Source: a virus
Lineage: Duplodnaviria > Caudoviricetes
Strand: one strand, 5' to 3'
Virus record (IMG/VR): IMGVR_UViG_3300020450_000008
Length of the DNA stretch: 64,000 bases
Every line of letters begins with the position of its first letter. The stretch's first letter is position 1. Below are positions 26,360-38,861 of this stretch, piece after piece. The notes beneath the pieces were generated by a model. It saw nothing but the letters and a program-made list of their open reading frames with translations, did no database searches and was not told the DNA's origin. The position numbers were made by a program, and so were the translations under genes.

Positions 26360-26773
26360 ATGAGTACACATTGGTCAAAAGATATTAGTGATATGCATCA
26401 AAAGTTTGGTGTTAATAAATGGTTTACTAAAAATAAATCAAACAAAGAGATTATGAAAAAATATCTTATGTTTCGAATGCTTATGTTAAATGAAGAACTA
26501 CATGAAACGATGCAAGCTGTAAATAGTGAAAACCCAGAAGAAATAGTAGATGGTTTGATAGACATATGTGTATTTGCAATAGGTACTCTCAATGTTTTAG
26601 AAGTTGATGCTGATAAAGCTTGGGATGCCATACATAATGCAAACATGGCAAAAGAACCTGGCGTAAAAGCTGGTAGACCTAATCCTTTCGGTATGCCAGA
26701 TCTATTAAAGCCAGAAGGTTGGAAAGGACCTGATCATAGCGACAATCATGGAAGTATCAGCGACATTCTTTAA
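26360..26773 (+). CDS. All-alpha NTP pyrophosphohydrolase (MazG/HisE-like)
   Basis: EELHE...EEIVDGLID acidic motif; AWDAIHNANMAK; KPEGWKGP. Confidence 0.8.
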   Translation: MSTHWSKDISDMHQKFGVNKWFTKNKSNKEIMKKYLMFRMLMLNEELHETMQAVNSENPEEIVDGLIDICVFAIGTLNVLEVDADKAWDAIHNANMAKEPGVKAGRPNPFGMPDLLKPEGWKGPDHSDNHGSISDIL

Positions 26774-27677
26774 ATCAATATACGATAATAAAACACATCG
26801 TAGAATGGATTTCCCAAACTTTCCTAAGTTTGAGGAGTTCCTATATAAATTATCTGAAAGAAAACTTGGAGGCAAAAATGATGCAGAACTTATGTGTCCA
26901 GCTACGTTCACTAAAGATACTACCCGAGCCAATAGAAACGTATTGGATTGGGCAGGCTGGGCTGCTGTTGATGTTGACGATTATGAATTCAAAGGGGATA
27001 TAAAAGATGCTTTACGCGATACAATTGGCTCTTTCCATTACATTTGTTATAGTACTGCTAGCAGCCGAGAAAGTCTTCCAAAGTTTCGTATTGTCTTTCC
27101 AACTCGAGAAAGAATTGGAGCAGGCAACATCAGAGCTTTCTGGTATGCTCTCAACTCAAAGCTCGAGTCAATTGGTGATAAACAAACTAAGGACCTCTCA
27201 CGCATGTATTATACTCCTGCTACGTATAATGGCGCTTTCAACTTTATCTTTACTAATGCTGGCTCTATTTTAAATCCAGCTGATCTAATAGAAAAATATC
27301 CATACGTTGAGAAAAATACAGGTAAAACATTCTTGGATAGATTACCCGAAGCTTTACAAAAGCAAATAATACAACATCGTAAAGATAAAGCTGAAAATAG
27401 AGATATACGATGGAATCATTACAGTGATTGTCCGTTCTGGCCACAAAGACTCGCATCAGAATACAAAGTAATAAGTAACACAGGTTGGTATCATAAGATG
27501 TATCAAATTATGGTTGCCACTGCAAGTAAAGCAATTCAAAGAGAATATCCTATTACATCTACAGAGATATCAGAAATGTGTAAAGCATTTGATGCTGATA
27601 ATGGTAATTGGTACCAGAATAGACCTATTGATAAAGAAGCGGATAGAGCAATTGAATATGCATATAAAAATATGTAA
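26748..27677 (+). CDS. Putative AEP-superfamily primase-polymerase-like protein
   Basis: AAVDVDD, YSTASS...PKFRIVFP, D..TKDLSRMYY.P motifs; C-terminal helical domain. Confidence 0.55.
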   Translation: MEVSATFFKSIYDNKTHRRMDFPNFPKFEEFLYKLSERKLGGKNDAELMCPATFTKDTTRANRNVLDWAGWAAVDVDDYEFKGDIKDALRDTIGSFHYICYSTASSRESLPKFRIVFPTRERIGAGNIRAFWYALNSKLESIGDKQTKDLSRMYYTPATYNGAFNFIFTNAGSILNPADLIEKYPYVEKNTGKTFLDRLPEALQKQIIQHRKDKAENRDIRWNHYSDCPFWPQRLASEYKVISNTGWYHKMYQIMVATASKAIQREYPITSTEISEMCKAFDADNGNWYQNRPIDKEADRAIEYAYKNM

Positions 27678-27684
27678 AAAAGTA

Positions 27685-27713
27685 TTTACTTTTGTCAAAA
27701 AGTTTGTTATAAT
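27685..27713 (+). promoter_or_regulatory. Early/middle promoter TTTACT-N17-TATAAT
   Basis: Recurring motif upstream of the 27736 operon. Confidence 0.65.
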
Positions 27714-27735
27714 AGAATTAGAATGGAGGTAAAAA

Positions 27736-28104
27736 ATGAAAGAATCAGTTAAAGTTTTACAAGAATGCGCTCAAATGCAAACTAAAAAATCAGCTGACTA
27801 TCAAAGCGATGAGTCAAGTGTATTACAAGCAATGCACTATCGTCGTGGCGTTGATACAATACACGATATTATAGTTGGCAAACTTATGCGTGCTACATCA
27901 TTACTTGAATCAGGCAACTCACCAAACTTTGAATCACTTGAAGATAGTTATAAAGATATGATTAATTATGCATCATTTGCAGTATCTTATATGCGTGGTA
28001 AGATGGAAGGCCAAAGACAAGATCGTGATATGTTTAATAAACCAATTGACCCATCAGCGACAGTTGAAATTGTTGAAGAACCAATTGAGGCGCATGACGA
28101 ATAA
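27736..28104 (+). CDS. Nucleotide-modification-associated domain protein (DUF1599/Nmad1-like)
   Basis: LQEC..MQ.KKSADY ... ESLEDSYKDMINYASF helical pattern. Confidence 0.55.
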   Translation: MKESVKVLQECAQMQTKKSADYQSDESSVLQAMHYRRGVDTIHDIIVGKLMRATSLLESGNSPNFESLEDSYKDMINYASFAVSYMRGKMEGQRQDRDMFNKPIDPSATVEIVEEPIEAHDE

Positions 28105-28337
28105 TGGCCGGAGCAATCAATACACCTTTAAGACAACTTATTATGGATTGGAGTGCATGCCAATTGTTAGAGAAAGATCCTGATAATATTGTTCTTAAAA
28201 AACTTAGATCTTGGGAGCATCCTGAAACAATAGAACTAAATAAACTATTAACACAATTTGAAAAAGATGGAAAATATCCAGAACACTATAATTTAGACTG
28301 GGGTTCAATTAATTATGAAGAGTTTATAAAAGAATGA
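28104..28337 (+). CDS. Hypothetical protein
   Basis: 77-aa coupled ORF. Confidence 0.5.
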   Translation: MAGAINTPLRQLIMDWSACQLLEKDPDNIVLKKLRSWEHPETIELNKLLTQFEKDGKYPEHYNLDWGSINYEEFIKE

Positions 28338-28681
28338 AAGCTGGAAAGATATGGGGTCAAACAGAACTAATCCATGCAAATGGTGTTCTAGAGTTTCATC
28401 GCATTGAATATAAAAAAGGCTTTAAATGTTCAGAGCATGAACATCAATTTAAATGGAATGGATTCTATGTTGAGTCCGGACAAATGCTTGTAAGAGTCTG
28501 GCAAGACGATCAAGAAGGATTAGTTGATGAAACTATATTAAATCCTGGAGACTTTACGCAAGTGAAACCTGGCAAGATTCATCAGTTCGAAGGACTTGAA
28601 GATGGAATTGCATTTGAACTTTATTGGGCTGAATTCAATCACAACGATATAGTTCGAAGAACTGTAGGAACAAAAGTATGA
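28334..28681 (+). CDS. Cupin-fold protein (sugar isomerase/epimerase-like)
   Basis: KIWG, CSEHEHQFKWNGFYVESG, PGKIHQF cupin motifs. Confidence 0.75.
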   Translation: MKAGKIWGQTELIHANGVLEFHRIEYKKGFKCSEHEHQFKWNGFYVESGQMLVRVWQDDQEGLVDETILNPGDFTQVKPGKIHQFEGLEDGIAFELYWAEFNHNDIVRRTVGTKV

Positions 28682-28869
28682 TATATGGTTGGATATTGAT
28701 AATGATAACTCTACATCCTGATGGATCATTAGACGGTGGAGCAATAGATTATTTTAACACTTACCCAGAGTGTTTTGAAGTAATGAAAGAAATGTCGGTT
28801 ACAGGTCAAGGAACAGGTTATACCTGTGTAGATGACTATGTAGATATGAGTGGAGATATAGAACAGTGA
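28678..28869 (+). CDS. Small hypothetical protein
   Basis: 63-aa coupled ORF with hydrophobic N-terminus and two Cys. Confidence 0.45.
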   Translation: MIYGWILIMITLHPDGSLDGGAIDYFNTYPECFEVMKEMSVTGQGTGYTCVDDYVDMSGDIEQ

Positions 28870-29282
28870 GAATTGGATTTACCTGCAGTACCTTTGATTT
28901 ACTTCATGCAGGCCATGTCATGATGTTAAGAGAAGCGAAAGCCCAATGTGATTATTTAATATGCGGACTGCAGGTAGATCCAAGTATAGACAGGCCAGAA
29001 AAGAATTCTCCTATACAATCTATTGTAGAAAGAGAAGCTCAATTATCAGCAATAAAATATGTTGATGAGGTGATTATTTATTGTACAGAAGATGATTTAT
29101 GTGATATAATTAATATGTACCCAATTGATATTAGAATATTAGGCGAAGAGTATAGAGATAGAGACTTTACTGGTAAAGATGAATGTAAGAAAAGAGGTAT
29201 TCAACTTTATTTCAATAAAAGAGAACATAGGTTTAGTACTTCAGATTTAAGGAAAAGAGTGTGCGAAAAGACGACATTATAG
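28866..29282 (+). CDS. Cytidylyltransferase, glycerol-3-phosphate CT (TagD)-like
   Basis: FDLLHAGH (HxGH), LICGLQ.D, KYVDEV, G.EY, FSTS motifs. Confidence 0.88.
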   Translation: MRIGFTCSTFDLLHAGHVMMLREAKAQCDYLICGLQVDPSIDRPEKNSPIQSIVEREAQLSAIKYVDEVIIYCTEDDLCDIINMYPIDIRILGEEYRDRDFTGKDECKKRGIQLYFNKREHRFSTSDLRKRVCEKTTL

Positions 29283-29470
29283 ATCTAGGCATAGACTTAG
29301 GCGAACCAGACTTTACAACTAAAAATGATAGGCCAGGATTTATTAGTAGCAGTGGTTGGCCAGTTCGTAGAGAAATAACAAAGTTAAATGACAATATGAA
29401 AATTATGGTCAAGCAAATGAGTAAATTAAAAAAACAAATAAGTAAACTAGAGAAGAAACTAAATGGATAA
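29261..29470 (+). CDS. Small coiled-coil hypothetical protein
   Basis: 69-aa ORF filling the gap, GTG start. Confidence 0.4.
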   Translation: MRKDDIIDLGIDLGEPDFTTKNDRPGFISSSGWPVRREITKLNDNMKIMVKQMSKLKKQISKLEKKLNG

Positions 29471-30170
29471 TATTGTGGAAAATTTAACATGGGCAAAAGT
29501 AAAACATATTCGTCAGCATTTTAGAGATGAATTAAACAAAGAAGTATTTACTATTGATAAAACTGGTCAAAAGACTATTGAAATGATTGGTGCATCTTTT
29601 GTTGCTGATGAATCAGCAATATTTGGTACTCCTAATCGAGAATATATTGATGCAGAAATAGATTGGTACAATAGTAGATCTACAAATATAAATGAAATAT
29701 TTGGAATCACAAAAGCACCACCACAAGCTTGGCAATATTCAGCTAATAAGTTTGGTGAGATCAACTCTAATTATGGCCACTTAATCTTTAGTGAAAAATT
29801 TTATAATCAATATTTACATGTTGTAGAAGAATTAATAAATAATCCTGATAGTCGTAGAGCCGCAATGATTTACAATCGTCCTTCAATATGGCTTGAATAT
29901 AATGAAGACGGTAAGAATGATTTTATCTGTACTAATGCTGTTACATACTATATACGTAATAGAAGATTAGATGCTGTAGTTCAAATGAGATCTAACGATG
30001 TGGTATATGGCTATAAAAATGATTATGCCTGGCAACAATACGTTATGAAACAACTTATTGAAGATATAAATGTTCAAAGACCCGATGATGATCAAGTCTT
30101 TAAAGGTTTTATGCATTGGCAGGTTCAAAACTTACATGTGTATGAAAGGCACTTTGATTTAGTACAATGA
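29463..30170 (+). CDS. gp42: dCMP hydroxymethylase-like enzyme (T4 gp42 family, thymidylate synthase fold)
   Basis: Colinear with T4 gp42 as recalled: DKTG.KTIE.IGASFVADE, GEINSNYG, NPDSRR, DFICTN (catalytic Cys), MRSNDVVYGYKNDYAWQ (Asp at the dCMP-specificity position), LHVYERHF. Confidence 0.9.
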   Translation: MDNIVENLTWAKVKHIRQHFRDELNKEVFTIDKTGQKTIEMIGASFVADESAIFGTPNREYIDAEIDWYNSRSTNINEIFGITKAPPQAWQYSANKFGEINSNYGHLIFSEKFYNQYLHVVEELINNPDSRRAAMIYNRPSIWLEYNEDGKNDFICTNAVTYYIRNRRLDAVVQMRSNDVVYGYKNDYAWQQYVMKQLIEDINVQRPDDDQVFKGFMHWQVQNLHVYERHFDLVQ

Positions 30171-30715
30171 GTCAATTATTTAAAGATCCAAAAAAACCAG
30201 CATTATTTGCAGATATGAATGATCCTGTTCTTAACGCGACATATAAAACAATGAATATTATTGGAGTCGATCCTGAAAAGAAATGGGATGTAAGATATAT
30301 TGAACTAGCCTACAAAGTAAGTGAATGGTCAAAAGATCCATCAACAAAGATAGGATGTGTGGTTGTAGGAAATAAGGGACAGGTATTGACTCAAGGATAC
30401 AACGGTTTTCCTCGTGGTATTGATGACTCAAATGAAAGACTTACAGATAGAGAAACTAAATTGAAATACGTTGTTCATGGAGAAATGAACGCGATATATA
30501 ATGCTTGTTATAATGGAATATCTCTTGAAGGAAGTACCATGTATGTTACTGGTCTTCCAACATGCTCTGATTGCGCCAAGGGTGTAATACAAGTAGGTGT
30601 TAAAAGAGTTGTCTGGCCTAAAGAACTTGAAAATGTTGAAGACAGATGGAAAGAATCTGTTAAATTAACTATGTCTATGTTCGATGAAGCTGGAGTAGAG
30701 TATGAGTTCATCTAA
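30167..30715 (+). CDS. dCMP deaminase
   Basis: SKDPSTKIG, GYNGFPRG, HGEMNA, PTCSDC zinc motifs. Confidence 0.92.
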   Translation: MSQLFKDPKKPALFADMNDPVLNATYKTMNIIGVDPEKKWDVRYIELAYKVSEWSKDPSTKIGCVVVGNKGQVLTQGYNGFPRGIDDSNERLTDRETKLKYVVHGEMNAIYNACYNGISLEGSTMYVTGLPTCSDCAKGVIQVGVKRVVWPKELENVEDRWKESVKLTMSMFDEAGVEYEFI

Positions 30716-31619
30716 TGCTCAAACAAATTTAAGTCGACTTAAATTAGCAGCAGATAAACCTAAAACTGTTGTAGCTTCTGATTGGAAAAGGTATTATAGT
30801 CGGTATGTTGACAGGGCTTTCGCAAGAACAATCAATATTGATACATCTACACGTTGCTTGATGCAATGTCCTTTTTGCTCTCGCCAAAATTTTGCAACTG
30901 GTAAACTGCACATCAAAACAAATAGAACGTTTTATGGAGATTTAACTCCAGAAAATGCTTTACAAATGGCTGATGCATTTGATCGTATAAGTTTTTGTGG
31001 TCAAATATCAGATCCAATATTTCATAAAAATTTATTCTCTATATTTGAAGCCTTAGATCAAGGTGCTGCTATTAGAACACTTGAGTTTCATACAGTTGCC
31101 TCTGGAAAAAAAATGGCTTGGTGGGAAAGAGTTTTCTCATATATGGAGAATGCAAAATATAAAACTGATTTTATCATAGGTATTGATGGAATTGATCAGA
31201 AAACAGCTTCTCATAGAATAGGACAAAACTTTGAAGAAGCATGGGAAGTCTTACGATATTTTGCTGATAATAAAAGAGATAATATAGATATCACCTGGCA
31301 GTTCATACCCTTTTTATATAATGAAGATGAAGTGTTAACTGCGGCAGAAACTGCTGTTTCATTAGGGATAAATTTATTACTTCTCAAATCATCTCGTCAC
31401 GTTGGAGAGTATAAGACAAATACTGGAGATAAAAAATATGCTATAGGAGCTGATTTATACACTCAAGAAGAATTTGAAAAAAAATTTCAAGGTCATTTAC
31501 CATTAGCTCCAACGAAATCATTTTTAAAATCAAATAATGGTATAACAAGTTTTAATGATGGATATATAAAAACAAAGGAAGATATAAAAGAATTAGAAAG
31601 AGTTTTAAATGAATCCTAA
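30702..31619 (+). CDS. Radical SAM protein
   Basis: CLMQCPFC (CxxxCxxC), FCGQISDP, GIDG, WQFI.F.YNE. Confidence 0.8.
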   Translation: MSSSNAQTNLSRLKLAADKPKTVVASDWKRYYSRYVDRAFARTINIDTSTRCLMQCPFCSRQNFATGKLHIKTNRTFYGDLTPENALQMADAFDRISFCGQISDPIFHKNLFSIFEALDQGAAIRTLEFHTVASGKKMAWWERVFSYMENAKYKTDFIIGIDGIDQKTASHRIGQNFEEAWEVLRYFADNKRDNIDITWQFIPFLYNEDEVLTAAETAVSLGINLLLLKSSRHVGEYKTNTGDKKYAIGADLYTQEEFEKKFQGHLPLAPTKSFLKSNNGITSFNDGYIKTKEDIKELERVLNES

Positions 31620-32190: not shown

Positions 32191-32512
32191 TAGTGCAGAA
32201 CTCTTGATGCTCTCAAGTATATTTGCTGATCTTGAAGATGGAGAAACAAGAACAGAAAACATCAAAAGAAGAATAGATCTAATGCAAAAATTTGTTAGAC
32301 CAACACCTACTCCAGCTAAAGTTGTGTCAACTCCATCTGAAAAGATGCAAGAAGAACTTGAACCTATTGCAGAACCAGAAGAAGAACAACAATTTAGTTT
32401 TTATAAAAAGGCAGATGCTGGTTCTGATTTAGTAGAACAACTCAGACAGAAAGAAATCATGAGAGCTGAACTTGCAGCTACTGTATCAAAAACCATGAAA
32501 AAATACAAATAA
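32174..32512 (+). CDS. Hypothetical protein
   Basis: 112-aa coupled ORF. Confidence 0.5.
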   Translation: MQPMSDSAELLMLSSIFADLEDGETRTENIKRRIDLMQKFVRPTPTPAKVVSTPSEKMQEELEPIAEPEEEQQFSFYKKADAGSDLVEQLRQKEIMRAELAATVSKTMKKYK

Positions 32513-32516
32513 ACTG

Positions 32517-32545
32517 TTTACAAACTCTAAAAAATTTGTTATAAT
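32517..32545 (+). promoter_or_regulatory. Early/middle promoter TTTACA-N17-TATAAT
   Basis: Exact motif heading the 32552-38861 operon. Confidence 0.7.
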
Positions 32546-32972: not shown

Positions 32973-34268
32973 ATGTCAAAAATTAAAGTCGGCATTGTCG
33001 GTGTCGGAAACTGTGCTAAGTCTCTCGTCGAGGGAATTCAATACTACAACTCAAATCCAGAAGATAAAGTAGGACTTATGTATGATGATATTGGTGGTTA
33101 TACAACTACTGATATAGAATTCGTAGTCGGTTTTGATGTAGATCGTCGTAAAGTAAATCGTCCATTAACAGAAGCTTTAAGAGCCGCTCCAAACTGCGCT
33201 ATGGATCATGTTGGAGAAATATTAGAAGTCGGTGCAAACACTCCAGGCTGTGTAGCTTCAGGAGCTATGGTATATTCTGGACCAGAACTAGATGGTATCG
33301 CACCATGGATGCTTGAATATCCTAAAGAAGTTTCATTTAGAACTGGAGCTGAAGCGGCAAAATCTTATGATGATATTGTAGACATAATTAAAAAGACTAA
33401 AGTTGATGTTCTGATTAATTATTTACCAGTTGGTACAGAAAAAGGGTCTAGATTTTATATGGATGCTGCATTAGACGCTGGTGTTCATTTTGTTAATTGT
33501 ATTCCAACTCTTATATCAACTAAAGAAACTATGGAGATAGAACAAAAGTTTATCAACAAAGGATTGACTATTGTTGGATCTGATATGAGATCCGCTTGGG
33601 GAGCTTCAAGAATGTCAGAAGTACTTCAAGGTGCTATGATAGATTCAGGACTAATGGTTACACAACATATACAGATGAATATGGCCGCTGGTTCTACTCA
33701 AGGTCAAGAAAATATACGAACAGGTAGAACAGCTAATACTGATTTTCTTAACATGGCAGAAAAATCTCGATTGCATAATAAACATGTATCAAAAGAAAAT
33801 GTTTTGAAAGGTCAAAATATAGTACGTAATGAACCTACAGCAGGTGCAACACTTTATGCTGGTCCATCTCTTACAGTATTTCAAAAGCCAGGTGGACAAT
33901 ATGTAGGTAGTGATAATAAAATAGCTAACTTCGATATTGTTGCTTATGGTTTTGGTGGGGCTAGATATGAAATGTCAGCTAGATTATCAGTACAAGACTC
34001 TCCAAACTCTGGTGGTGTTGTAGTATCTGCAATCAGGTTCTGCAAAGTTGCATCTGAAATGAGCATTGTTGGTTATCTTAGAGGTCCATCAGCATGGACT
34101 CAAAAAACTCCTCCACTTCAGTTATCTACATCTGATTCAAAATTTGAATGTGATGCTTTGGCAAGACGTACTCTTACAAAATTAACTGAAGCTCAATTAA
34201 AAGTAAATAAACCAAAAGCAAAAAGTCTACCATATACATTCCAAGCTGGAGAAACAGATTATGAGTAG
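32973..34268 (+). CDS. ino1: Myo-inositol-1-phosphate synthase
   Basis: VGIVGVGNCAKSLVEG, EFVVGFDVD.RKV, DVLINYLPVG, FVNCIP, GSD.RS..GA, NTDFLNM, DNK, DSPNSGGVV. Confidence 0.9.
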   Translation: MSKIKVGIVGVGNCAKSLVEGIQYYNSNPEDKVGLMYDDIGGYTTTDIEFVVGFDVDRRKVNRPLTEALRAAPNCAMDHVGEILEVGANTPGCVASGAMVYSGPELDGIAPWMLEYPKEVSFRTGAEAAKSYDDIVDIIKKTKVDVLINYLPVGTEKGSRFYMDAALDAGVHFVNCIPTLISTKETMEIEQKFINKGLTIVGSDMRSAWGASRMSEVLQGAMIDSGLMVTQHIQMNMAAGSTQGQENIRTGRTANTDFLNMAEKSRLHNKHVSKENVLKGQNIVRNEPTAGATLYAGPSLTVFQKPGGQYVGSDNKIANFDIVAYGFGGARYEMSARLSVQDSPNSGGVVVSAIRFCKVASEMSIVGYLRGPSAWTQKTPPLQLSTSDSKFECDALARRTLTKLTEAQLKVNKPKAKSLPYTFQAGETDYE

Positions 34269-34665
34269 AGAACCTTTTGAGCCTTGGAAAAACATTCCTC
34301 AAAAGACTATAAATTCATATGATATCGATGGCGTTATATACATGGGTGACTATGATGGATTAAGGCCAGGACCTGATGATATCGTAATTACTGGTAGATC
34401 TATTTGTACCGAAGAAGAAACTAAAAAAATGCTTCTTAAAAAAGGTATAACTAATCCTTTATACATGAATTTTAAAGACAAAGACTATAATAATAGAGAA
34501 CAATCTGGATTTCATAAAGGTTGGACTTTATTTCATCTTGAGCAGCTGGGGTATCATATTGGAATCCATTATGATGATGATATGATTCAAATCGAAAAGA
34601 TAAATGAAATGATGCCGCATATTCATTGCGTTCATGTAAAACACGAACTTGTACCAAAGGAGTAA
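34261..34665 (+). CDS. Small HAD-superfamily phosphatase
   Basis: YDIDGVI (DxDG), VITGRS, K, HYDDD motifs. Confidence 0.75.
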   Translation: MSREPFEPWKNIPQKTINSYDIDGVIYMGDYDGLRPGPDDIVITGRSICTEEETKKMLLKKGITNPLYMNFKDKDYNNREQSGFHKGWTLFHLEQLGYHIGIHYDDDMIQIEKINEMMPHIHCVHVKHELVPKE

Positions 34666-34667: not shown

Positions 34668-35738
34668 ATGTACAACTATGATTGGTGGTCTTACGATAAA
34701 GACATAATGAAAGATTTTAATCATTTCTTAAAAAAGATTAATACTCGAGCATGTATCAATTATGGTTTTATTGATGAGGAATATGAAAACTTAAATAGGC
34801 ATGGAGACTTAGATCATGGTCTTGGTCGTAATGTAGAATATTTCCACCCTACAATTACTTTAGATGATAGAATGAGATATATTGGTACAGTCATTGCGCA
34901 GCATGATATGTCTGATTTTAGTATTTTAGGCAATGGTATAATATCTCACTTTTATGGAGCACGTGGCGTTCATATGGCAGTTACAGGATCTAACGATCCT
35001 AATGACTGTTTTGTTGATTTTGACAAATTAGCTGATAATGATAAAGATTACCTACAGCATCTTAGAAATAATATAGATAATTCTAGAAAGTTAAAAAAAC
35101 CAATATGGGGTACAACAGAACTTCATACATCAATACAAGCAGCTTCTAGAAATTATTGTAGACAAAAATATGATGACGCTGAAAGAGCATTCCATCCTGT
35201 TGACGTAGTTGATTGGGTTGCATCATTTAGAAATAATGGAACATATGAAGAACTCTTTGCCGCAGATCATATTGGAGAAGCTTATAAAATATTAAGAAAG
35301 TTACCAGGTATTGGAGAATATTACGGATTTCATGGTGCTGCATCAACTAGTGTTTTACCTCAAATGAAATATTATCATGATGATAAATTTGTAGCTCCAG
35401 GACCTGGTGCAGTATATACAATAGGACTTATGTGGCCAAAGGCTCCAAAAAAATATTATGCAGAAGCAATTTACTTCTTAAGAGAAAACAGCGATGAGAT
35501 TGGTCTTACAGAAGATGTTAGTTTTCATCCAGGCGCTTATAACATCGATATGCCAGGTGGAAAAAAGCTTTTTAGAGAAGATCAAAAAACTCTTAAATAT
35601 TATGGTACTGAAGTTTTATCTTGTCAGTTTGGTATATACTTACAGATTAGAGAAGATGCTAAGCTATGTGCAAAACGTCAGGTATCAAGAGCTACAGTAC
35701 TTGAAGATCAAAATACGTTAGAAAGTTTTATGCAATGA
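34668..35738 (+). CDS. aGPT-pyrophosphorylase/amino-acid:DNA-transferase-like protein (HhH glycosylase fold)
   Basis: LPGIGEYYGF helix-hairpin-helix followed by FVAPGPGA, EVLSCQFGIY; ATG 34668 has GGAG RBS; C-terminal TLESFMQ. Confidence 0.6.
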   Translation: MYNYDWWSYDKDIMKDFNHFLKKINTRACINYGFIDEEYENLNRHGDLDHGLGRNVEYFHPTITLDDRMRYIGTVIAQHDMSDFSILGNGIISHFYGARGVHMAVTGSNDPNDCFVDFDKLADNDKDYLQHLRNNIDNSRKLKKPIWGTTELHTSIQAASRNYCRQKYDDAERAFHPVDVVDWVASFRNNGTYEELFAADHIGEAYKILRKLPGIGEYYGFHGAASTSVLPQMKYYHDDKFVAPGPGAVYTIGLMWPKAPKKYYAEAIYFLRENSDEIGLTEDVSFHPGAYNIDMPGGKKLFREDQKTLKYYGTEVLSCQFGIYLQIREDAKLCAKRQVSRATVLEDQNTLESFMQ

Positions 35739-36721
35739 AAGCAATATTAAACTGTCCATTTATTCCAGTAGCAAAAAGAATAGCTTCTCACAGAGGAGCT
35801 CAAGGCGTTATGTATGGCGATATGATAAAACAAAAGTATGGTCATTGTGATGTCAACTTTGGTGGCGAGATTATAGATCATAATCAGTATGATACGATGT
35901 GGGTATATCATGGAAATGATTTTAGTGGTGGATTAAATATGTTTGGTGGCGTTTATGGTTTTCCTTATGTAGAAAATACAGTAAACTTTTCTAAGTTTAA
36001 AGGTAAAATAAAATCAATAGCCATTGACTTTCCGCCATATCATGAATGGATAAAAGATAAATTAGATAAAGCTAAGAAAGACGTACAGCCTGAATGGGCC
36101 AGTGTAGATTTAAATAATCTTGAAAGAATGTATAATGAAGCTGAAACGGTTGATTATCCAAATATGACCGACAAATTAGTCATAGGTGATTCACATTCGA
36201 TATGCATGTATAGACCGGGTTGGACCGTCAATAGCATACCATTTAAAACTTTAAATGGAGCTTTAAAAGAAGGTATTAAAACATTCATACCAAAAGGAAG
36301 TTTCAATCAAATAGAATTGTACTTTGGCAATATTGATATAAGACATCATGTGTGTAGGCTAAATGCTGATATAGAAGAATTGGCTGATAGATATATTGAA
36401 CAAGCAAAAGAATTGAATGCTAAAATATATGAACTATTGCCAATAGAAAATGAATCACGCAAGTTACCACAATCTGGATATTATAAAGGCGAACCTTTCT
36501 GGGGTACATGGCAAGAAAGAACAGATGCAAGAAATAAATTTAATGATTACATTGAAAGCAAATATGGAATCATACGTTGGACGGATAAATTACTAAATAA
36601 AACTGGTGAACTTGATTTTGCATGTATGGAAAAACCAAAGTCAATACATTTAAGTAGAGAGTTCTATCCTCACTGGAACGGAGAGGAAGAGGTAAATACA
36701 TTAGAGGAGTTTTTCGGATGA
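35735..36721 (+). CDS. Putative DNA-modification protein: beta-glucosyltransferase-like N-terminus plus SGNH-like C-terminus
   Basis: YD..WVYHGND...LNMFGG...FSKFKGKI resembles the T4 BGT N-domain (from memory); LVIGDSH, GNIDIRHH, SIHLS are SGNH-like; ends TLEEFFG. Confidence 0.4.
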   Translation: MKAILNCPFIPVAKRIASHRGAQGVMYGDMIKQKYGHCDVNFGGEIIDHNQYDTMWVYHGNDFSGGLNMFGGVYGFPYVENTVNFSKFKGKIKSIAIDFPPYHEWIKDKLDKAKKDVQPEWASVDLNNLERMYNEAETVDYPNMTDKLVIGDSHSICMYRPGWTVNSIPFKTLNGALKEGIKTFIPKGSFNQIELYFGNIDIRHHVCRLNADIEELADRYIEQAKELNAKIYELLPIENESRKLPQSGYYKGEPFWGTWQERTDARNKFNDYIESKYGIIRWTDKLLNKTGELDFACMEKPKSIHLSREFYPHWNGEEEVNTLEEFFG

Positions 36722-37914
36722 GCTTTGCAAGTATAGTGCCACTCATAGGTGGTGAAACAATAGCAATGCAAAATGTATCAGGTAAAAAACCAGAATACAT
36801 ATTAAGCTATTCAGCGTTTGAAGCAAATGATAACCAATTAGTTGAATACTATGATAACAAAGTACCATACTATCATTTAGATGGTAATATGCCAAAAAGT
36901 TTACCAACTGTAGAGTCTGTCAATACTGTTTGTCCTTGTGCTGGATTAAGCAGTCTTTCTCCAGTTGCTGGTACAAATAATAGTAATAATGATTGGATGA
37001 GTAAAACAGCTAAACATGTTTTAGAACATATCAATCCTAAAGTGTTTTGGGGAGAAAACGCTCCAAGACTTGCAAGTAAAATGGGTGAGCCTATAGTTAA
37101 AAATCTTAGAAAAATTGGAAGTGACAATGGATACACATTTTCAATATATAAAACAAAATCAATATTACATGGATTAAGTCAGGTAAGAGATAGAACCTTC
37201 TATTTCTTTTGGAAAGGAGATAAGATTCCACGCTTACCTTATATTCACAGAAATTACGAGCGTATTGAAGATACCATTAGAAATACAAAGCTTAAAAAAG
37301 ATGATCCAATGAATATTCCAGTAAATAGTAAGGCTCCTACAGATAATCCTTTTTATAAGTATGTACTAGAGGAGATAGAAGGTGGTATAACACATTCAGA
37401 ATTTCAAGAAAAAATAGAGCGTAGTACCAATCCTTTAGAAGAAATAGAGAGAGCCGGTATAAAATATCGTACTGTAGGCGAGTGGATGACTAAAAAAGGC
37501 TATGATAGAGAAGCAGAAAAGTGTAAAAGAATGCATGATAAATTAGCATCAGGTGGTAACATAATGCGTAAAACTACTGAAATACCAAAAGATTATATTG
37601 GAGCTTTTGTTGGTCATATGCCAACATCACTAACACATCCTGATGAAGATAGGTATCTTACAGTAAGAGAATGTTTATCAATCATGAAATTACCTGATGA
37701 TTTTATGTTACAAGGTGGTCTTAAAAATCTTAATCATATTTGCCAAAACGTTCCTGTGACTACGGCAGAAGATATGGCCACTAGTGTTCATGCTTTTGTA
37801 GAGGGAAGGCTTGATAACCAGATGATTGATACAAAATTTTTAGTACAAGATAACAAAAATAAGTCATTGGATTATCAAAGAGAAAGCATGCAACTAGATG
37901 AGTTTATGGTATAG
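36718..37914 (+). CDS. C5-cytosine methyltransferase-fold protein with degenerate SAM-binding motif I
   Basis: PLIGG (motif I variant), CPCAGLS (IV), GENAP (VI), QVRDRTF (VIII), RYLTVRECLSIMKLPDDF (IX), QNVP (X). Confidence 0.75.
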   Translation: MSFASIVPLIGGETIAMQNVSGKKPEYILSYSAFEANDNQLVEYYDNKVPYYHLDGNMPKSLPTVESVNTVCPCAGLSSLSPVAGTNNSNNDWMSKTAKHVLEHINPKVFWGENAPRLASKMGEPIVKNLRKIGSDNGYTFSIYKTKSILHGLSQVRDRTFYFFWKGDKIPRLPYIHRNYERIEDTIRNTKLKKDDPMNIPVNSKAPTDNPFYKYVLEEIEGGITHSEFQEKIERSTNPLEEIERAGIKYRTVGEWMTKKGYDREAEKCKRMHDKLASGGNIMRKTTEIPKDYIGAFVGHMPTSLTHPDEDRYLTVRECLSIMKLPDDFMLQGGLKNLNHICQNVPVTTAEDMATSVHAFVEGRLDNQMIDTKFLVQDNKNKSLDYQRESMQLDEFMV

Positions 37915-37922
37915 GAGATAAA

Positions 37923-38861
37923 ATGAAAATATTAATAACAGGACAAGCTGGATTTATAGGTTTCCATGCCGCTATTGGATTTAAAAATGATGGTTGGGAA
38001 GTACATGGTATTGATAACTTCAATGATTATTATGATGTAAAACTGAAAAGAGATAGAGCTACTATTCTTCAAGATTTAGGAATTTCTACTATTGATGATA
38101 CCATTGAAAATTTTAATAAAATAGATTTTCCAGAATATGATTTAATACTACATTTAGCCGCTTATACAAATCCCAGACACGCTTTAAAAACTCAACAACC
38201 TTATATTGATACTAATATTACAGCAACTCAAAGAATAATTGATGTAGCACAAGATAAAGGAACACCAGTTGTATACGCTTCAAGCAGTTGCGTCATGCTA
38301 GGACAACCACTTCCTTGGAATGAAACCGATAGACCACAACATCAAAACAATCCTTATGGTTGGTCAAAGCATGTCAATGAATGCCAATTTAAACACTCAA
38401 CTGTTGTAAGATCTGCTGGATTGAGATTCTTTACGGTTTATGGTCCTTATGGAAGACCTGATATGGCACTGTTTTCTTTTACAAGATCGATAGTAAAAGA
38501 TGAAGGAATAGTTTTATATAACTACGGCGATATGAAAAGAGACTTTACTTACGTAGATGATATTATCCAAGGTATAAAAATAGTTGCAAACAAACTTATG
38601 AAAGATGAAGAAAACTATCATGAGATATATAATATTGGGTATGGTGATCAAGTAGAGTTAATTGACTTCGTTGATCATATTGAAAAGAATCTTGGTAGAA
38701 AGACCGAAAGAAAATTAGAACCAATGCATCCTGCAGATGCAAAAGAAACTTGGTCAGATACTACAAAGCTTCAAGCACTTGGATATAAACCAACAACTCC
38801 TGTACAAATAGGAGTTGCTAAATTCGTTGAATGGTATAAACAATATTATAATGTAAATTAA
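37923..38861 (+). CDS. NAD-dependent sugar-nucleotide epimerase (UDP-glucuronate 4-epimerase-like)
   Basis: TGQAGFIG, YASSS, YGWSK (YxxxK), RFFTVYGPYGRPDMA, RDFTYVDD. Confidence 0.9.
   Translation: MKILITGQAGFIGFHAAIGFKNDGWEVHGIDNFNDYYDVKLKRDRATILQDLGISTIDDTIENFNKIDFPEYDLILHLAAYTNPRHALKTQQPYIDTNITATQRIIDVAQDKGTPVVYASSSCVMLGQPLPWNETDRPQHQNNPYGWSKHVNECQFKHSTVVRSAGLRFFTVYGPYGRPDMALFSFTRSIVKDEGIVLYNYGDMKRDFTYVDDIIQGIKIVANKLMKDEENYHEIYNIGYGDQVELIDFVDHIEKNLGRKTERKLEPMHPADAKETWSDTTKLQALGYKPTTPVQIGVAKFVEWYKQYYNVN

What the first reader, a model, noticed from the sequence alone, without database searches (positions are those of the whole stretch)
26360..38861. Candidate new cytosine-hypermodification system built around hmC synthesis and inositol metabolism
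Seen: one co-oriented locus holds a gp42-like dCMP hydroxymethylase, dCMP deaminase, NTP pyrophosphohydrolase, Nmad1-like protein, cupin, cytidylyltransferase, radical SAM pair, UDG-like protein, myo-inositol-1-phosphate synthase (MIPS), HAD phosphatase, aGPT-Pplase-like protein, BGT/SGNH-like protein, Dcm-like protein and a sugar epimerase. Established: T-even phages make hm-dCMP with gp42 and then add sugars to hmC in DNA, and aGPT-Pplase and Nmad genes mark hypermodification loci. No canonical T4 alpha- or beta-glucosyltransferase is visible here. Inference: the phage may add a cyclitol (inositol or inositol phosphate) or another non-glucose group to hmC, a chemistry I do not know to have been described.
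Basis: partly seen in the sequence, partly recalled or inferred. Interest (0 to 1): 0.92.

Follow-up and report, generated by a model that had tools for sequence, protein, structure and literature searches.

The report
Cyclitol-linked hydroxymethylcytosine DNA modification cassette
A marine T4-like phage, and hundreds of uncultured relatives, place an inositol-phosphate-synthase-like gene and a phosphatase gene next to clamp-tethered DNA-acting enzymes and a hydroxymethylcytosine synthase, which points to an undescribed DNA base modification.

Summary

- **Starting base.** The thymidylate-synthase homologue is a true T4 gp42-type 5-hydroxymethyl-dCMP synthase. It is not the newly described 5-hydroxy-dCMP type.
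- **The new result is comparative.** All 50 IMG/VR loci with at least 5 kb on both sides of the 34668-35738 gene also carry three neighbours within 6 kb. These are the MIPS-like gene, the small HAD phosphatase and the 35735-36721 gene.
- **What the two unknown proteins fold like.** The 34668-35738 protein has the helix-hairpin-helix fold of amino-acid:DNA transferases and of the helical domain of 5-hmdU DNA kinase. The 35735-36721 protein has an SGNH C-terminal domain. No T4 beta-glucosyltransferase (BGT) likeness was found.
- **Clamp tails.** These two proteins and the Dcm-like protein end in the same sliding-clamp peptide as the DNA polymerase. The metabolite-level enzymes never do.
- **Not part of the conserved system.** Cupin, cytidylyltransferase and the radical SAM pair are private to this phage. 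The epimerase is a backbone gene.
- **Independent links.** In Ralstonia phage RP13 the MIPS/HAD pair sits in a 5-hmU-type cluster. In Stenotrophomonas phage Moby it sits in a 7-deazaguanine cluster.

No paper found describes cyclitol-modified DNA. The chemical product is inferred, not shown. Other first-stage notes of this scan cover the same stretch.

The parts
26311..26339 (+). sigma-70-like promoter (TTTACA-17-TATAAT) in the gap before the MazG gene
   Evidence: 11 of 12 matches. It is one of only three such sites, and all three lie in intergenic gaps. The overall number of promoter-like sites is not above chance.
26360..26773 (+). MazG/PRA-PH-type NTP pyrophosphohydrolase. Candidate dCTP-clearing enzyme, playing the role of T4 gp56.
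   Evidence: Present next to the polymerase gene in relatives that carry the cassette. Absent at this position in phage C48C1. PRA-PH co-occurs with thymidylate-synthase homologues on modified contigs (PMC8670742).
26748..27677 (+). primase-like protein; a backbone gene, not part of the modification system
   Evidence: PHROG 9765, E 5e-43. 52% identical in C48C1, which lacks the cassette.
27736..28104 (+). Nmad1/DUF1599 protein (nucleotide-modification-associated domain 1)
   Evidence: Found in 16 of 21 loci of the window's clade.
28334..29282 (+). cupin (28334-28681), a 63-aa ORF and a cytidylyl/adenylyltransferase (28866-29282); private to this phage
   Evidence: Cupin is in 0 of 50 adequately flanked loci. 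The transferase is within 6 kb in only 1 of 50 and anywhere in the locus in 2 of 50.
29463..30170 (+). gp42-type dCMP hydroxymethylase (5hm-dCMP synthase)
   Evidence: T4 gp42 structures, E 1e-70. Catalytic Cys (FICTN), Asp at the E. coli N177 position (KNDYAW), Asp at the E. coli D169 position (RSND) and Asp at the E. coli L143 position are all kept. Criteria taken from PMC13326640.
30167..30715 (+). dCMP deaminase
   Evidence: Present in 21 of 21 loci of the window's clade.
30702..32512 (+). radical SAM enzyme (30702-31619), Cys-rich partner (31609-32190) and an acidic 112-aa ORF; private to this phage or its closest relatives
   Evidence: The radical SAM gene and its partner are in 0 of 50 related loci.
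32517..32545 (+). sigma-70-like promoter heading the UDG-like to epimerase operon
   Evidence: 11 of 12 matches. There is no comparable gap or site until 39032.
32552..32926 (+). minimal UDG-superfamily protein with motifs GQNPS and HPSPRN; present in a subset of relatives only
   Evidence: PF03167, E 2e-7. Present in 4 of 50 adequately flanked loci. No PDB sequence match. The resemblance of the motifs to SMUG/MUG-type glycosylases is from memory and was not tested.
32973..34268 (+). MIPS-family cyclitol-phosphate synthase
   Evidence: Ino1 (1gr0) E 3e-51, and a five-membered-cyclitol-phosphate synthase (6k96) E 5e-27. Within 6 kb of the 356-aa gene in 50 of 50 loci. 74-82% identical in most of the window's clade, where the polymerases are only 50-57% identical.
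34261..34665 (+). small HAD-type phosphatase; its start overlaps the MIPS stop codon
   Evidence: Motif I DxDGV is kept in 122 of 124 unique homologues. Weak match to the polynucleotide-kinase phosphatase PHROG, E 3e-4. Paired with MIPS in 50 of 50 loci and in phages RP13, Moby and Cr30.
34668..35738 (+). 356-aa helix-hairpin-helix base-flipping enzyme of the HMUDK-helical / aGPT-Pplase superfamily, with a clamp-type C-terminal tail. Candidate group transferase acting on 5hmC in DNA.
   Evidence: Pfam PF18723, E 4e-9. AF2 model pLDDT 90. VIA-align top hit is the PaMx11 5-PmdU glycinyltransferase 8z2m (Z 9.1, rmsd 4.6, 220 aligned), followed by about 20 HhH-GPD glycosylases. BFVD: SP10 5-hmdU DNA kinase E 3e-6, Pplase1 E 3e-3. 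46 invariant residues including Cys319. Residues 345-356 are disordered and end in TLESFMQ.
35735..36721 (+). 328-aa two-domain protein: an unassigned alpha/beta N-domain (1-140) plus an SGNH/GDSL domain (145-315), with a clamp-type tail identical to that of the polymerase
   Evidence: AF2 model pLDDT 89. Foldseek E 1e-6 and VIA-align Z 12 to SGNH esterases. GDSH 151-154, GNID 198-201 and H305 are invariant. Fused to a 356-aa-type domain in Aeromonas phages 31 and 44RR2.8t. Tail TLEEFFG.
36718..37914 (+). C5-cytosine-methyltransferase-fold protein with intact catalytic motifs, a conserved non-canonical cofactor pocket and a clamp-type tail
   Evidence: PF00145, E 9e-18. Across 56 unique homologues CPCAGLS, GENAP, QxRxR and the atypical motifs VPLIGG (I) and CQNVP (X) are kept at 90-100% of the sequences per position; the P, L and both G of VPLIGG are invariant. 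51 of 56 carry the tail. Present in 20 of 21 loci of the window's clade but only 3 of 29 distant loci.
37923..38861 (+). NAD-dependent sugar epimerase/dehydratase-family protein; a backbone gene. Some relatives carry a shorter 249-aa paralogue inside the cassette.
   Evidence: 50% identical in C48C1, which lacks the cassette. Short paralogue at L015:12102-12851.
14378..15052 (+). gp45-type sliding clamp; proposed docking platform for the three tailed enzymes
   Evidence: 49% identical to the C48C1 processivity factor. Complex test with the tail of the 328-aa protein gave weak support.
23079..25610 (+). gp43-type DNA polymerase whose C-terminus (TLEEFFG) serves as the reference clamp peptide
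8947..10311 (+). NodU/TobZ-type O-carbamoyltransferase. It could give a rival or additional fate for 5hmC, and it lies outside the finding.
   Evidence: Only 1 of 5 long relative contigs has one.

Best explanation
The locus encodes a post-replicative hypermodification pathway for 5-hydroxymethylcytosine. It is conserved in many uncultured marine and aquatic T4-like phages.

Nucleotide-level steps. These follow from well-characterised families:
- The MazG-type pyrophosphohydrolase depletes dCTP.
- The gp42-type enzyme makes 5hm-dCMP.
- dCMP deaminase feeds dTMP synthesis by the phage ThyX.
- 5hmC enters the DNA during replication.

Donor supply (inferred). The MIPS-family enzyme cyclises a hexose phosphate to a cyclitol phosphate, most simply glucose-6-P to inositol-3-P. 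The translationally coupled HAD phosphatase then releases the free cyclitol.

DNA-level steps (inferred). Three enzymes carry the polymerase's sliding-clamp peptide, so they ride on newly made DNA.
- The 356-aa helix-hairpin-helix enzyme flips out 5hmC. Like its relatives the amino-acid:DNA transferases, it would replace the substituent on the 5-methylene carbon with an incoming nucleophile, here a cyclitol hydroxyl. The product would be 5-(cyclitol-O-methyl)cytosine, which is hm-dC + 162 Da.
- The 328-aa SGNH protein is its obligate partner, and the two are fused in Aeromonas phages. It would either make the hydroxymethyl group a better leaving group by acyl transfer, standing in for the missing 5-hmdU-type kinase, or tailor the attached group.
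- The Dcm-like protein is confined to this clade. It has a remodelled cofactor pocket and an intact catalytic Cys, and would act on 5hmC or its adduct rather than methylate cytosine.

My odds:
- A 5hmC-based DNA modification system run by clamp-tethered enzymes: about 0.75.
- The MIPS/HAD product is the attached group: about 0.45.
- The specific roles given to the SGNH and Dcm-like proteins: about 0.25 each.
For: The starting base is 5hmC:
- T4 gp42 structures match at E 1e-70, and the Cys, Asp179-equivalent, E. coli D169-equivalent and E. coli L143-equivalent positions are all of the 5hmC-synthase type. The criteria come from PMC13326640.
- Divergent thymidylate-synthase homologues carry the same signature in six genomes that hold the cassette or part of it: Aeromonas phages 25 and 44RR2.8t, and IMG/VR records G001, G002, G004 and G005.

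Gene linkage:
- 217 and 291 IMG/VR stretches encode relatives of the 356-aa protein. These are two overlapping searches, not additive counts.
- In 50 of 50 loci with at least 5 kb on both sides, the MIPS, HAD and 328-aa homologues lie within 6 kb. This holds down to about 40% identity.
- Only 19 of 50,697 GenBank phage records carry this MIPS at all.
- The genes from MIPS to the Dcm-like gene overlap or nearly abut and lie behind one promoter-like site.

Folds:
- The 356-aa protein.
- The 328-aa protein.
- The two are fused into one 795-aa protein in Aeromonas phages 31 and 44RR2.8t. These phages have gene 42 but no glucosyltransferase (PMC2993671).

Clamp tails:
- In the window, only 5 of 122 ORFs end in L-x(1,2)-F-hydrophobic. 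They are the polymerase, gp55 and the three consecutive enzymes.
- Across unique homologues the tail is found in 26 of 35 polymerases, 74 of 129 356-aa proteins, 62 of 115 328-aa proteins and 51 of 56 Dcm-like proteins.
- It is found in 0 of 122 MIPS, 0 of 124 HAD, 0 of 68 gp42, 0 of 50 dCD and 0 of 50 UvsX sequences.
- The complex test of the clamp trimer with the tail of the 328-aa protein gave weak support: score 0.58 against a best control of 0.37. That mark was reached by 51 of 78 solved complexes and 2 of 108 mismatched pairs. Scores of 0.60 or under were seen in only 5 of those 78. Runs agreed in at least 61% of contacts, and the partner's pLDDT was at least 40.

Independent links between MIPS/HAD and DNA-modification clusters:
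- In phage RP13, MIPS and HAD lie within 10 kb of a full-length HMUDK_hel protein (E 3e-47) and an HMUD2 kinase (E 1e-13). Its thymidylate-synthase homologue is of the dUMP type.
- In phage Moby, MIPS and HAD sit between FolE and QueC-DpdA-QueE.

Variable tailoring genes sit inside the cassette in relatives: a short epimerase-family gene and a SAM methyltransferase.
Against: - No chemical data exist. The phage is uncultured and known only from marine metagenomes.
- No activating enzyme for the hydroxymethyl group was identified. No P-loop or HMUD2 kinase was found in the window or in the flanks of related loci.
- The proposed acyl-transfer role of the SGNH protein has no precedent on DNA.
- The MIPS-family protein scores far below the NCBIfam equivalog cut-off (202 against 638 bits). 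The family also holds non-inositol cyclitol synthases such as 6k96, so the product could be another carbocycle.
- The Aeromonas phages carry the 328-aa and 356-aa domains without MIPS or HAD. Phage 25 has the 328-aa homologue next to a UDP-galactopyranose mutase instead. The DNA-acting enzymes therefore do not strictly need a cyclitol.
- Phages Moby and Cr30 carry MIPS/HAD without any hydroxymethylase.
- The fold match of the 356-aa protein is moderate for a helical protein (Z 9.1), and there is no sequence-level match to any solved transferase.
- A carbamoyltransferase elsewhere in the window could give 5hmC a different fate.
Confidence: 0.5

Rival explanations
1. The cassette does modify 5hmC in DNA, but the MIPS/HAD product is not the attached group. 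The SGNH protein and the helix-hairpin-helix protein would install a different substituent, for example an acyl ester or a sugar. The cyclitol or its phosphate would serve as a cofactor, a leaving group or carrier, a regulator, or a separate product.
For: - Aeromonas phages 31, 44RR2.8t and 25 have gene 42 plus the 328-aa domain, with or without the 356-aa domain, but no MIPS or HAD.
- Next to that domain, 44RR2.8t has a sodium:solute symporter and phage 25 has a UDP-galactopyranose mutase.
- SGNH enzymes are typically acyl hydrolases or transferases.
- Phages Moby and Cr30 keep MIPS/HAD without a hydroxymethylase.
Against: - Linkage is 50 of 50, gene order is conserved and MIPS-HAD-356-aa are translationally coupled.
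- MIPS is more conserved than the DNA polymerase in most of the window's clade.
- MIPS/HAD recurs in a 5-hmU-type cluster in RP13. This is hard to explain unless its product enters the modification.
Confidence: 0.22
2. MIPS/HAD is an auxiliary metabolic pair that makes inositol for the infected cell, for example for an osmolyte, a lipid head group or a redox thiol. It would merely sit in a hypervariable replication-gene region. The helix-hairpin-helix protein would be a DNA glycosylase and the small HAD a 3'-phosphatase, working in repair or anti-defence. 5hmC, or its carbamoyl derivative made by the 8947-10311 enzyme, would then be the final base.
For: - The fold list of the 356-aa protein is dominated by HhH-GPD glycosylases.
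- The HAD weakly resembles the polynucleotide-kinase phosphatase domain.
- A NodU/TobZ-type carbamoyltransferase is present, and such enzymes are known to make 5-carbamoyloxymethylcytosine (PMC8670742).
- The pol-to-uvsX region is a known site for accessory genes.
Against: - The closest structural and profile relatives are DNA-modifying transferases and kinase helical domains, not glycosylases.
- The HAD never carries the clamp tail, whereas the DNA-acting enzymes do.
- MIPS has no role in repair, yet it is linked in 50 of 50 loci.
- The carbamoyltransferase is found in only 1 of 5 long relative contigs, and it is absent from a complete 153-kb genome that carries the cassette.
Confidence: 0.15
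3. The target is not 5hmC. The helix-hairpin-helix and SGNH enzymes would act on 5-hydroxymethyluracil or another base, as in the known thymidine hypermodification pathways. dCMP deaminase would supply the precursor.
For: - The only sequence-family hit of the 356-aa protein is to a 5-hmdU kinase domain.
- A dCMP deaminase is adjacent.
- Phage RP13 links MIPS/HAD to 5-hmU-type genes.
Against: - Every genome examined that carries the 356-aa or 328-aa genes has a dCMP-specific hydroxymethylase signature (Asp at the E. coli N177 position). None has a dUMP-type one.
- The phage has ThyX for ordinary dTMP synthesis.
- No 5-hmdU kinase is present.
Confidence: 0.06

Closest known systems
T-even phage 5hmC pathway (gp56 dCTPase, gp42 dCMP hydroxymethylase, then alpha/beta-glucosyltransferases)
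   Same: - Same first committed enzyme, 5hm-dCMP synthase, with the diagnostic residues kept.
- Same genome position, between gene 43 and uvsX.
- dCMP deaminase and an NTP pyrophosphohydrolase are present.
- The 5-hydroxymethyl group is presumably decorated after replication.
   Different: - No GT-B glucosyltransferase was found in the window.
- In its place are a helix-hairpin-helix enzyme, an SGNH enzyme and a C5-methyltransferase-fold enzyme.
- A dedicated donor-supply pair (MIPS and HAD) replaces the host's UDP-glucose.
- MazG takes the place of gp56.
Thymidine hypermodification pathways (5-hmdU DNA kinase plus aGPT-Pplase/amino-acid:DNA transferases of phages M6, ViI, PaMx11, PhiW-14 and SP10; PMC8989533, PMC11472151)
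   Same: - The 356-aa protein shares the glycosylase-like helix-hairpin-helix fold. Its top solved match is PaMx11 gp46, and it hits the Pfam HMUDK_hel model.
- The logic is the same: a hydroxymethylpyrimidine built into DNA is then substituted at the 5-methylene carbon by a small-molecule nucleophile.
- A conserved Cys is present, as proposed for the catalysis of gp46.
   Different: - The base is cytosine, not uracil.
- No P-loop or HMUD2 kinase is present.
- The candidate nucleophile is a cyclitol, not an amino acid or polyamine.
- The partner is an SGNH protein.
- The enzymes carry clamp-binding tails.
- The aGPT-Pplase Pfam models are not hit.
5-hydroxymethylcytosine carbamoyltransferase system (MetaGPA, PMC8670742)
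   Same: A non-sugar group is placed on the hydroxyl of 5hmC. The thymidylate-synthase homologue co-occurs with PRA-PH/MazG and dCMP deaminase on phage contigs.
   Different: The enzyme families and the donor differ. The window does carry a carbamoyltransferase, but it lies 20 kb away and is not linked to the cassette in relatives.
Arabinosyl-5-hydroxycytosine pathway of RB69 and DLP3 (PMC13326640)
   Same: A T4-like phage cluster between the polymerase gene and rIIA combines a thymidylate-synthase homologue with phage-encoded synthesis of the donor, including a HAD-type sugar phosphatase.
   Different: Those synthases carry Asn at the E. coli D169 position and make 5-hydroxy-dCMP; here Asp is kept. 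Their donor is an NDP-arabinose used by GT-B transferases.
Myo-inositol-1-phosphate synthase (Ino1) with inositol monophosphatase
   Same: The protein is about 40% identical to M. tuberculosis Ino1 over the full length, with an NAD-binding N-terminus. It is followed by a phosphatase, as in the two-step synthesis of inositol.
   Different: It scores well below the equivalog cut-off and has insertions. The phosphatase is a small HAD, not an IMPase-fold enzyme. The context is phage DNA-modification clusters.

Membership tests
T4 gp42-type dCMP hydroxymethylase | Thymidylate-synthase fold with the catalytic Cys (T4 Cys148) | tested here: met
   E 1e-70 to 1b49/1b5e; FICTN aligns with FMCTN.
T4 gp42-type dCMP hydroxymethylase | Asp at the E. 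coli N177 position (T4 Asp179), which gives dCMP specificity | tested here: met
   KNDYAW aligns with RNDYAW. The T4 D179N variant 6l18 reads RNNYAW.
T4 gp42-type dCMP hydroxymethylase | Asp, not Asn, at the E. coli D169 position. This separates 5hm-dCMP synthases from 5ho-dCMP synthases. | tested here: met
   (RSNDVV); criterion from PMC13326640.
T4 gp42-type dCMP hydroxymethylase | Acidic residue at the E. coli L143 position, which admits water | tested here: met
   the D of NDFIC, three residues before the Cys. Criterion.
aGPT-Pplase / amino-acid:DNA transferase | DNA-glycosylase-like helix-hairpin-helix fold | tested here: met
   8z2m Z 9.1, rmsd 4.6, 220 aligned, then about 20 HhH-GPD glycosylases.: Pplase1 E 3e-3. 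An LPGIG hairpin motif is present.
aGPT-Pplase / amino-acid:DNA transferase | Match to the Pfam aGPT-Pplase models or to a solved member by sequence | tested here: not met
   only PF18723 HMUDK_hel.: no PDB sequence or profile match.
aGPT-Pplase / amino-acid:DNA transferase | Works together with a 5-hmdU DNA kinase encoded nearby | tested here: not met
   No kinase family was hit in the window or seen in the loci examined. Phage RP13 does have HMUD2.
aGPT-Pplase / amino-acid:DNA transferase | Substrate is 5-hydroxymethyluracil-derived DNA | tested here: not met
   The associated hydroxymethylases are of the dCMP type.
Myo-inositol-1-phosphate synthase | Family-level sequence match over the full length | tested here: met
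   PF01658, 34.6 bits against a cut-off of 27. 1gr0 at E 3e-51 over residues 3-387.
Myo-inositol-1-phosphate synthase | Equivalog-level score, meaning the same function as Ino1 | tested here: not met
   TIGR03450: 202 bits against a cut-off of 638. The five-membered-cyclitol synthase 6k96 is also hit.
Myo-inositol-1-phosphate synthase | Catalytic Lys and Asp residues of the active site | tested here: inconclusive
   In the 1gr0 alignment the Lys residues of the SK..SK stretch, the DSPNS Asp and the C-terminal Lys are kept. The mapping to catalytic residues rests on my memory of the yeast enzyme.
SGNH/GDSL hydrolase | SGNH fold | tested here: met
   Foldseek E 1e-6, VIA-align Z 11-12.6 over residues 145-315.
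SGNH/GDSL hydrolase | Block I GDS serine, block III GxND asparagine and block V histidine | tested here: met
   G151-D152-S153-H154, G198-N199-I200-D201 and H305 are invariant in 29 sequences. The block V Asp was not identified.
DNA cytosine-C5 methyltransferase | Catalytic motifs IV (PC), VI (ENV) and VIII (QxRxR) | tested here: met
   CPCAGLS and GENAP are invariant, as are the Q and both R of motif VIII, in 56 homologues.
DNA cytosine-C5 methyltransferase | SAM-binding motifs I (FxGxG) and X (GN[AS]VP) | tested here: not met
   VPLIGG and CQNVP stand in their place and are conserved. The canonical consensus is quoted from memory.
HAD phosphatase | Motif I DxDx(T/V) with the nucleophilic Asp | tested here: met
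   DxDGV in 122 of 124 unique homologues. Family-model support is weak (PHROG 415 E 3e-4; PF03767 E 1e-3 for a homologue).
T4 alpha/beta-glucosyltransferase | Sequence or fold match to the T4 DNA glucosyltransferases | tested here: not met
   No glycosyltransferase family was hit by any window ORF scanned. The model of the 328-aa protein matches SGNH enzymes only. The rest of the genome is not held.

The most novel reading that the evidence does not exclude
Abundant marine T4-like phages replace cytosine with 5-(cyclitol-O-methyl)cytosine, an inositol-type carbocycle linked by an ether bond to 5hmC. A self-contained cassette would make it: a MIPS-family synthase, a HAD phosphatase, a helix-hairpin-helix DNA transferase and an SGNH partner. 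The DNA-acting enzymes would be recruited to nascent DNA through the polymerase's sliding-clamp peptide and would activate the hydroxymethyl group without a kinase or an NDP-sugar. The same MIPS/HAD donor pair would also serve 5-hmU-type clusters (phage RP13) and perhaps 7-deazaguanine clusters (Menderavirus). That would make cyclitols a general, previously unseen building block of viral DNA.
Probability: 0.35. Interest if true: 0.92.

Novelty: new variant of a known kind. Interest (0 to 1): 0.82.

Why it matters
- **Chemistry.** It would add a new chemical class, carbocyclic polyols, to the known viral DNA hypermodifications. It would also add a new enzymology: a 5hmC-directed relative of the amino-acid:DNA transferases working with an SGNH enzyme and no kinase.
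- **Clamp tethering.** The clamp-tail result suggests that phage base-modifying enzymes can be physically coupled to the replisome. I am not aware of this having been described for T4 glucosyltransferases.
- **Ecology and methods.** The protein families are annotated only as hypothetical, yet they are common in Tara and other ocean data. The modification could therefore be widespread in ocean viromes. It could bias sequencing and restriction-based methods, and it could shape phage-host defence interactions.
- **Applications.** Such enzymes are also candidates for 5hmC-labelling chemistry.
- **Testability.** Cultured phages carry parts of the system: Aeromonas phages 31, 44RR2.8t and 25, Ralstonia phage RP13 and Stenotrophomonas phage Moby. 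The idea can be tested directly.

Tried and rejected
Searches that found nothing:
- Megablast of the 12.5-kb region against GenBank phages gave no match.
- PDB sequence searches with the 356-aa, 328-aa and UDG-like proteins, and with the profile of the 356-aa family, found nothing usable.
- Foldseek against the PDB gave no significant hit for the 356-aa model. Only VIA-align and BFVD resolved its fold.
- The protein atlas gave no lead for the N-terminal domain of the 328-aa protein, so that domain remains unassigned.
- No whole genome is held for the window. A gp1-type dNMP kinase, glycosyltransferases or kinases elsewhere in the genome could not be checked.
- The profile of the 356-aa family found nothing in RP13, Moby, Cr30, Aeromonas phage 25 or C48C1. 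The Pfam HMUDK_hel model did find a different member in RP13.
- The Iyer et al. 2013 paper is not held.
- Literature searches linking inositol, MIPS, cyclitol or SGNH with phage DNA modification returned nothing relevant.

Ideas rejected:
- The thymidylate-synthase homologue is not a dUMP hydroxymethylase or a 5ho-dCMP synthase.
- BGT-likeness of the 328-aa protein is rejected.
- Cupin, cytidylyltransferase, the radical SAM pair and the PMM-like gene are not conserved parts of the system.
- The carbamoyltransferase is not a conserved partner.

The overall count of promoter-like sites is no higher than in shuffled sequence. Only the placement of the three best sites is suggestive.

Full report
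**What is there**

The window is part of an uncultured marine T4-like phage.
- Its DNA polymerase is at most 54% identical to any GenBank phage. The best match is phage C48C1, classified in Kyanoviridae.
- The DNA occurs in marine metagenomes from at least six studies.
- Between the gene 43 polymerase (23079-25610) and uvsX (39089-40126), all ORFs lie on the + strand and most are translationally coupled.
- There are two qualifications. The 'radical SAM pair' is one radical SAM enzyme plus a Cys-rich protein with no family hit. The two proteins called 'aGPT-Pplase-like' and 'BGT/SGNH-like' needed structure prediction to be placed.

**The starting base is 5hmC**

The thymidylate-synthase homologue (29463-30170) matches the T4 dCMP hydroxymethylase structures at E 1e-70. 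Lee et al. 2026 (PMC13326640) showed that many phage homologues make 5-hydroxy-dCMP instead, and that this type is marked by Asn at the E. coli D169 position.

The window protein keeps four diagnostic positions:
- Asp at the E. coli D169 position (RSND).
- Asp at the E. coli N177 position, which gives dCMP specificity.
- Asp at the E. coli L143 position.
- The catalytic Cys.

It is therefore a 5hm-dCMP synthase. The phage makes ordinary dTMP with a separate ThyX (43833-44702).

**Which genes belong together**

Phage C48C1 has the same backbone but no cassette: polymerase, primase-like gene, epimerase, UDP-glucose dehydrogenase, UvsX. The primase-like gene and the epimerase are therefore backbone genes.

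Scanning IMG/VR with the 356-aa protein and with two alignments of its relatives found 217 and 291 stretches that encode relatives. I fetched 162 loci and tabulated their gene content.
- In 50 of 50 loci with at least 5 kb on both sides of the 356-aa gene, homologues of MIPS, the small HAD and the 328-aa protein lie within 6 kb.
- This holds down to about 40% identity and in phages as different as a 153-kb genome and a 359-kb genome.
- In the window's own clade (21 loci), gp42 and dCMP deaminase are adjacent in all 21. The Dcm-like gene is adjacent in 20 and Nmad1 in 16.
- In the distant clade, gp42 lies in the locus in 10 of 29.
- Four of five long contigs checked carry a divergent thymidylate-synthase homologue with the dCMP-hydroxymethylase signature. 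So do Aeromonas phages 25 and 44RR2.8t.
- Cupin, the radical SAM gene and its partner are absent from all 50 loci. The cytidylyltransferase is within 6 kb in only 1 of 50 and anywhere in the locus in 2 of 50. The UDG-like gene is in 4 of 50.
- In most of the window's clade MIPS is 74-82% identical, whereas the polymerases are only 50-57% identical.
- By contrast, only 19 of 50,697 GenBank phage records carry this MIPS at all.

**What the unknown proteins are**

The 356-aa protein (34668-35738):
- It gives a confident model, pLDDT 90.
- Its best solved match is the PaMx11 5-PmdU glycinyltransferase 8z2m (Z 9.1, rmsd 4.6, 220 residues). Next come the queuine-salvage enzyme and about twenty HhH-GPD DNA glycosylases.
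- Among predicted viral structures it matches Aeromonas phage 31 ORF233c (E 9e-13) and the SP10 5-hmdU DNA kinase (E 3e-6). It also matches several 'HMUDK helical domain' proteins and clade 1 aGPT-Pplases.
- By sequence it hits only Pfam HMUDK_hel.
- It has an LPGIG hairpin and 46 invariant residues, including Cys319. A catalytic Cys is proposed for gp46 (PMC11472151). I could not test whether the two Cys residues are equivalent.

The 328-aa protein (35735-36721):
- Its model has pLDDT 89.
- Residues 145-315 form an SGNH/GDSL domain: Foldseek E 1e-6, VIA-align Z up to 12.6.
- GDSH, GNID and His305 are invariant.
- Its N-terminal alpha/beta domain remains unassigned.
- In Aeromonas phages 31 and 44RR2.8t the two proteins are fused into one 795-aa protein. 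Those phages were long noted to have genes 42 and 56 but no glucosyltransferase (PMC2993671).

The Dcm-like protein (36718-37914):
- It keeps the catalytic PC, EN and QxRxR motifs.
- Its motifs I and X read VPLIGG and CQNVP. Their positions are kept in 90-100% of 56 unique homologues, so the cofactor pocket appears to be remodelled rather than decayed.

**Clamp tails separate the DNA-level steps from the metabolite-level steps**

I followed a lead from another first-stage note.
- Only 5 of the 122 + strand ORFs in the window end in L-x(1,2)-F-hydrophobic. They are the polymerase (TLEEFFG), the gp55-like sigma factor and the three consecutive enzymes (TLESFMQ, TLEEFFG, QLDEFMV).
- Across unique homologues the tail occurs in 26 of 35 polymerases, 74 of 129 356-aa proteins, 62 of 115 328-aa proteins and 51 of 56 Dcm-like proteins.
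- It occurs in none of 122 MIPS, 124 HAD, 68 gp42, 50 dCD, 50 UvsX, 38 Nmad1 or 37 MazG sequences.
- The tail of the 356-aa model is disordered.
- That T4 gp43, gp55 and gp33 bind the gp45 clamp through such C-terminal peptides is established knowledge, quoted here from memory.
- A complex test used the clamp trimer (14378-15052) and residues 285-328 of the 328-aa protein. It gave only weak support: 0.58 against a best control of 0.37. That mark was reached by 51 of 78 solved complexes and 2 of 108 mismatched pairs, but scores of 0.60 or under were seen in only 5 of those 78. Runs agreed in at least 61% of contacts, and the partner's pLDDT was at least 40.

**Independent links between MIPS/HAD and DNA modification**
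- In Ralstonia phage RP13, MIPS (ORF125) and the HAD (ORF127) lie within 10 kb of a full-length HMUDK_hel protein (ORF120, E 3e-47) and an HMUD2 5-hmdU kinase (ORF133, E 1e-13). Its thymidylate-synthase homologue has Asn at the specificity position, the dUMP type.
- In Stenotrophomonas phage Moby the pair sits between FolE and QueC-DpdA-QueE.
- In Aeromonas phage 44RR2.8t, which lacks MIPS, the fused enzyme is next to a sodium:solute symporter. In phage 25 the SGNH homologue follows a UDP-galactopyranose mutase.
- Some relatives have a short epimerase-family gene or a SAM methyltransferase inside the cassette. This resembles the tailoring genes of a biosynthetic cluster.

**Most likely mechanism**
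- Shown from well-characterised families: 5hm-dCMP synthesis and its nucleotide context.
- Inferred from linkage and fold:
  - MIPS and HAD make a free cyclitol.
  - The clamp-tethered helix-hairpin-helix enzyme flips out 5hmC and substitutes its 5-methylene substituent with the cyclitol, giving an ether adduct of +162 Da.
  - The SGNH partner either provides activation, standing in for the absent kinase, or tailors the adduct.
  - The Dcm-like enzyme is a clade-specific extra step on 5hmC.
- I put about 0.75 on a clamp-tethered 5hmC modification system and about 0.45 on the cyclitol being the attached group.
- The main weaknesses are these:
  - There is no chemistry.
  - No activating enzyme was identified.
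  - The MIPS-family enzyme is not at equivalog level, and non-inositol cyclitol synthases exist in the family.
  - Some carriers have the DNA-acting enzymes without MIPS, and others have MIPS without them.
  - A NodU/TobZ carbamoyltransferase at 8947-10311 could carbamoylate 5hmC as in PMC8670742. It is not linked to the cassette in relatives.

**Novelty**

Full-text searches found no paper that connects MIPS, inositol, cyclitols or SGNH enzymes with phage DNA modification. All database members of the two enzyme families are annotated as hypothetical proteins, and many come from Tara Oceans data.

The kind of system is known: post-replicative decoration of a hydroxymethylpyrimidine. The donor, the enzyme set and the clamp tethering are new. 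I therefore class it as a new variant of a known kind, with high interest.

Other first-stage notes of this scan cover the same stretch and its parts. None had been followed up.

Noticed in passing
window 8947-10311: An intact NodU/TobZ-type O-carbamoyltransferase lies directly after uvsW. Enzymes of this family can convert 5hmC to 5-carbamoyloxymethylcytosine (PMC8670742). Only 1 of 5 long contigs that carry the cassette has one.
   Followed up: partly
window 10934-11524, 23079-25610, 34668-37914: The same C-terminal peptide, (T/Q)L(E/D/T)xF(F/M/L), ends the gp55-like sigma factor, the DNA polymerase and three consecutive modification enzymes. It is conserved in their homologues and absent from seven other protein families of the locus.
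   Followed up: yes
L001 (Ralstonia phage RP13, LC554890.1 82887-102155): The unannotated ORF120 is a full-length HMUDK_hel protein and ORF133 is an HMUD2 5-hmdU DNA kinase. They flank MIPS (ORF125) and a HAD (ORF127). ORF132 is an Acb1-like anti-CBASS protein. The thymidylate-synthase homologue of RP13, at 60575-60961 of the record, has Asn at the specificity position. RP13 probably carries an undescribed thymidine hypermodification.
   Followed up: partly
L002 (Stenotrophomonas phage Moby, MN095772.1 28981-31462): The MIPS/HAD pair is inserted between FolE and QueC-DpdA-QueE of a 7-deazaguanine DNA modification cluster. This raises the question of whether the deazaguanine is decorated further.
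   Followed up: no
L005 and L006 (Aeromonas phages 44RR2.8t and 25): A phage-encoded sodium:solute symporter (SSF family, E 6e-53) lies next to the fused SGNH and helix-hairpin-helix protein in 44RR2.8t. A UDP-galactopyranose mutase (E 5e-54) and an unknown 358-aa protein lie next to the SGNH homologue in phage 25. Both phages have gp42-type 5hmC synthases and no known glucosyltransferase.
   Followed up: partly
window 16798-17853 and 53570-54577: There are two IMPDH/GMP-reductase-family genes in one phage window (E 6e-70 and 2e-58).
   Followed up: no
window 50472-58744: A second accessory block holds an Asp/Asn beta-hydroxylase-like protein, a class IV aminotransferase, SAM methyltransferases, a B12-binding radical SAM enzyme (516 aa) and an AMP-binding-enzyme fragment. 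Its function is unknown and it is unrelated to the cassette in the relatives examined.
   Followed up: no
window 18467-19219 and 25565-26338: A shortened UDP-glucose/GDP-mannose dehydrogenase-family gene and a phosphomannomutase-like HAD are slotted between replication genes. The latter is not found in the related loci.
   Followed up: partly
L024 (ENA contig k141_105692, 166.7 kb): A distant carrier of the cassette also encodes CsgF, CsgG and curlin-repeat proteins, and a ThyX next to the cassette. As far as I recall, such curli genes have been reported in pelagimyophages.
   Followed up: no
window 26311-26339, 32517-32545, 39032-39060: Three identical TTTACA-N17-TATAAT sites occupy the only sizeable intergenic gaps of the region. 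They divide it into units that start at MazG, at the UDG-like gene and at uvsX.
   Followed up: partly
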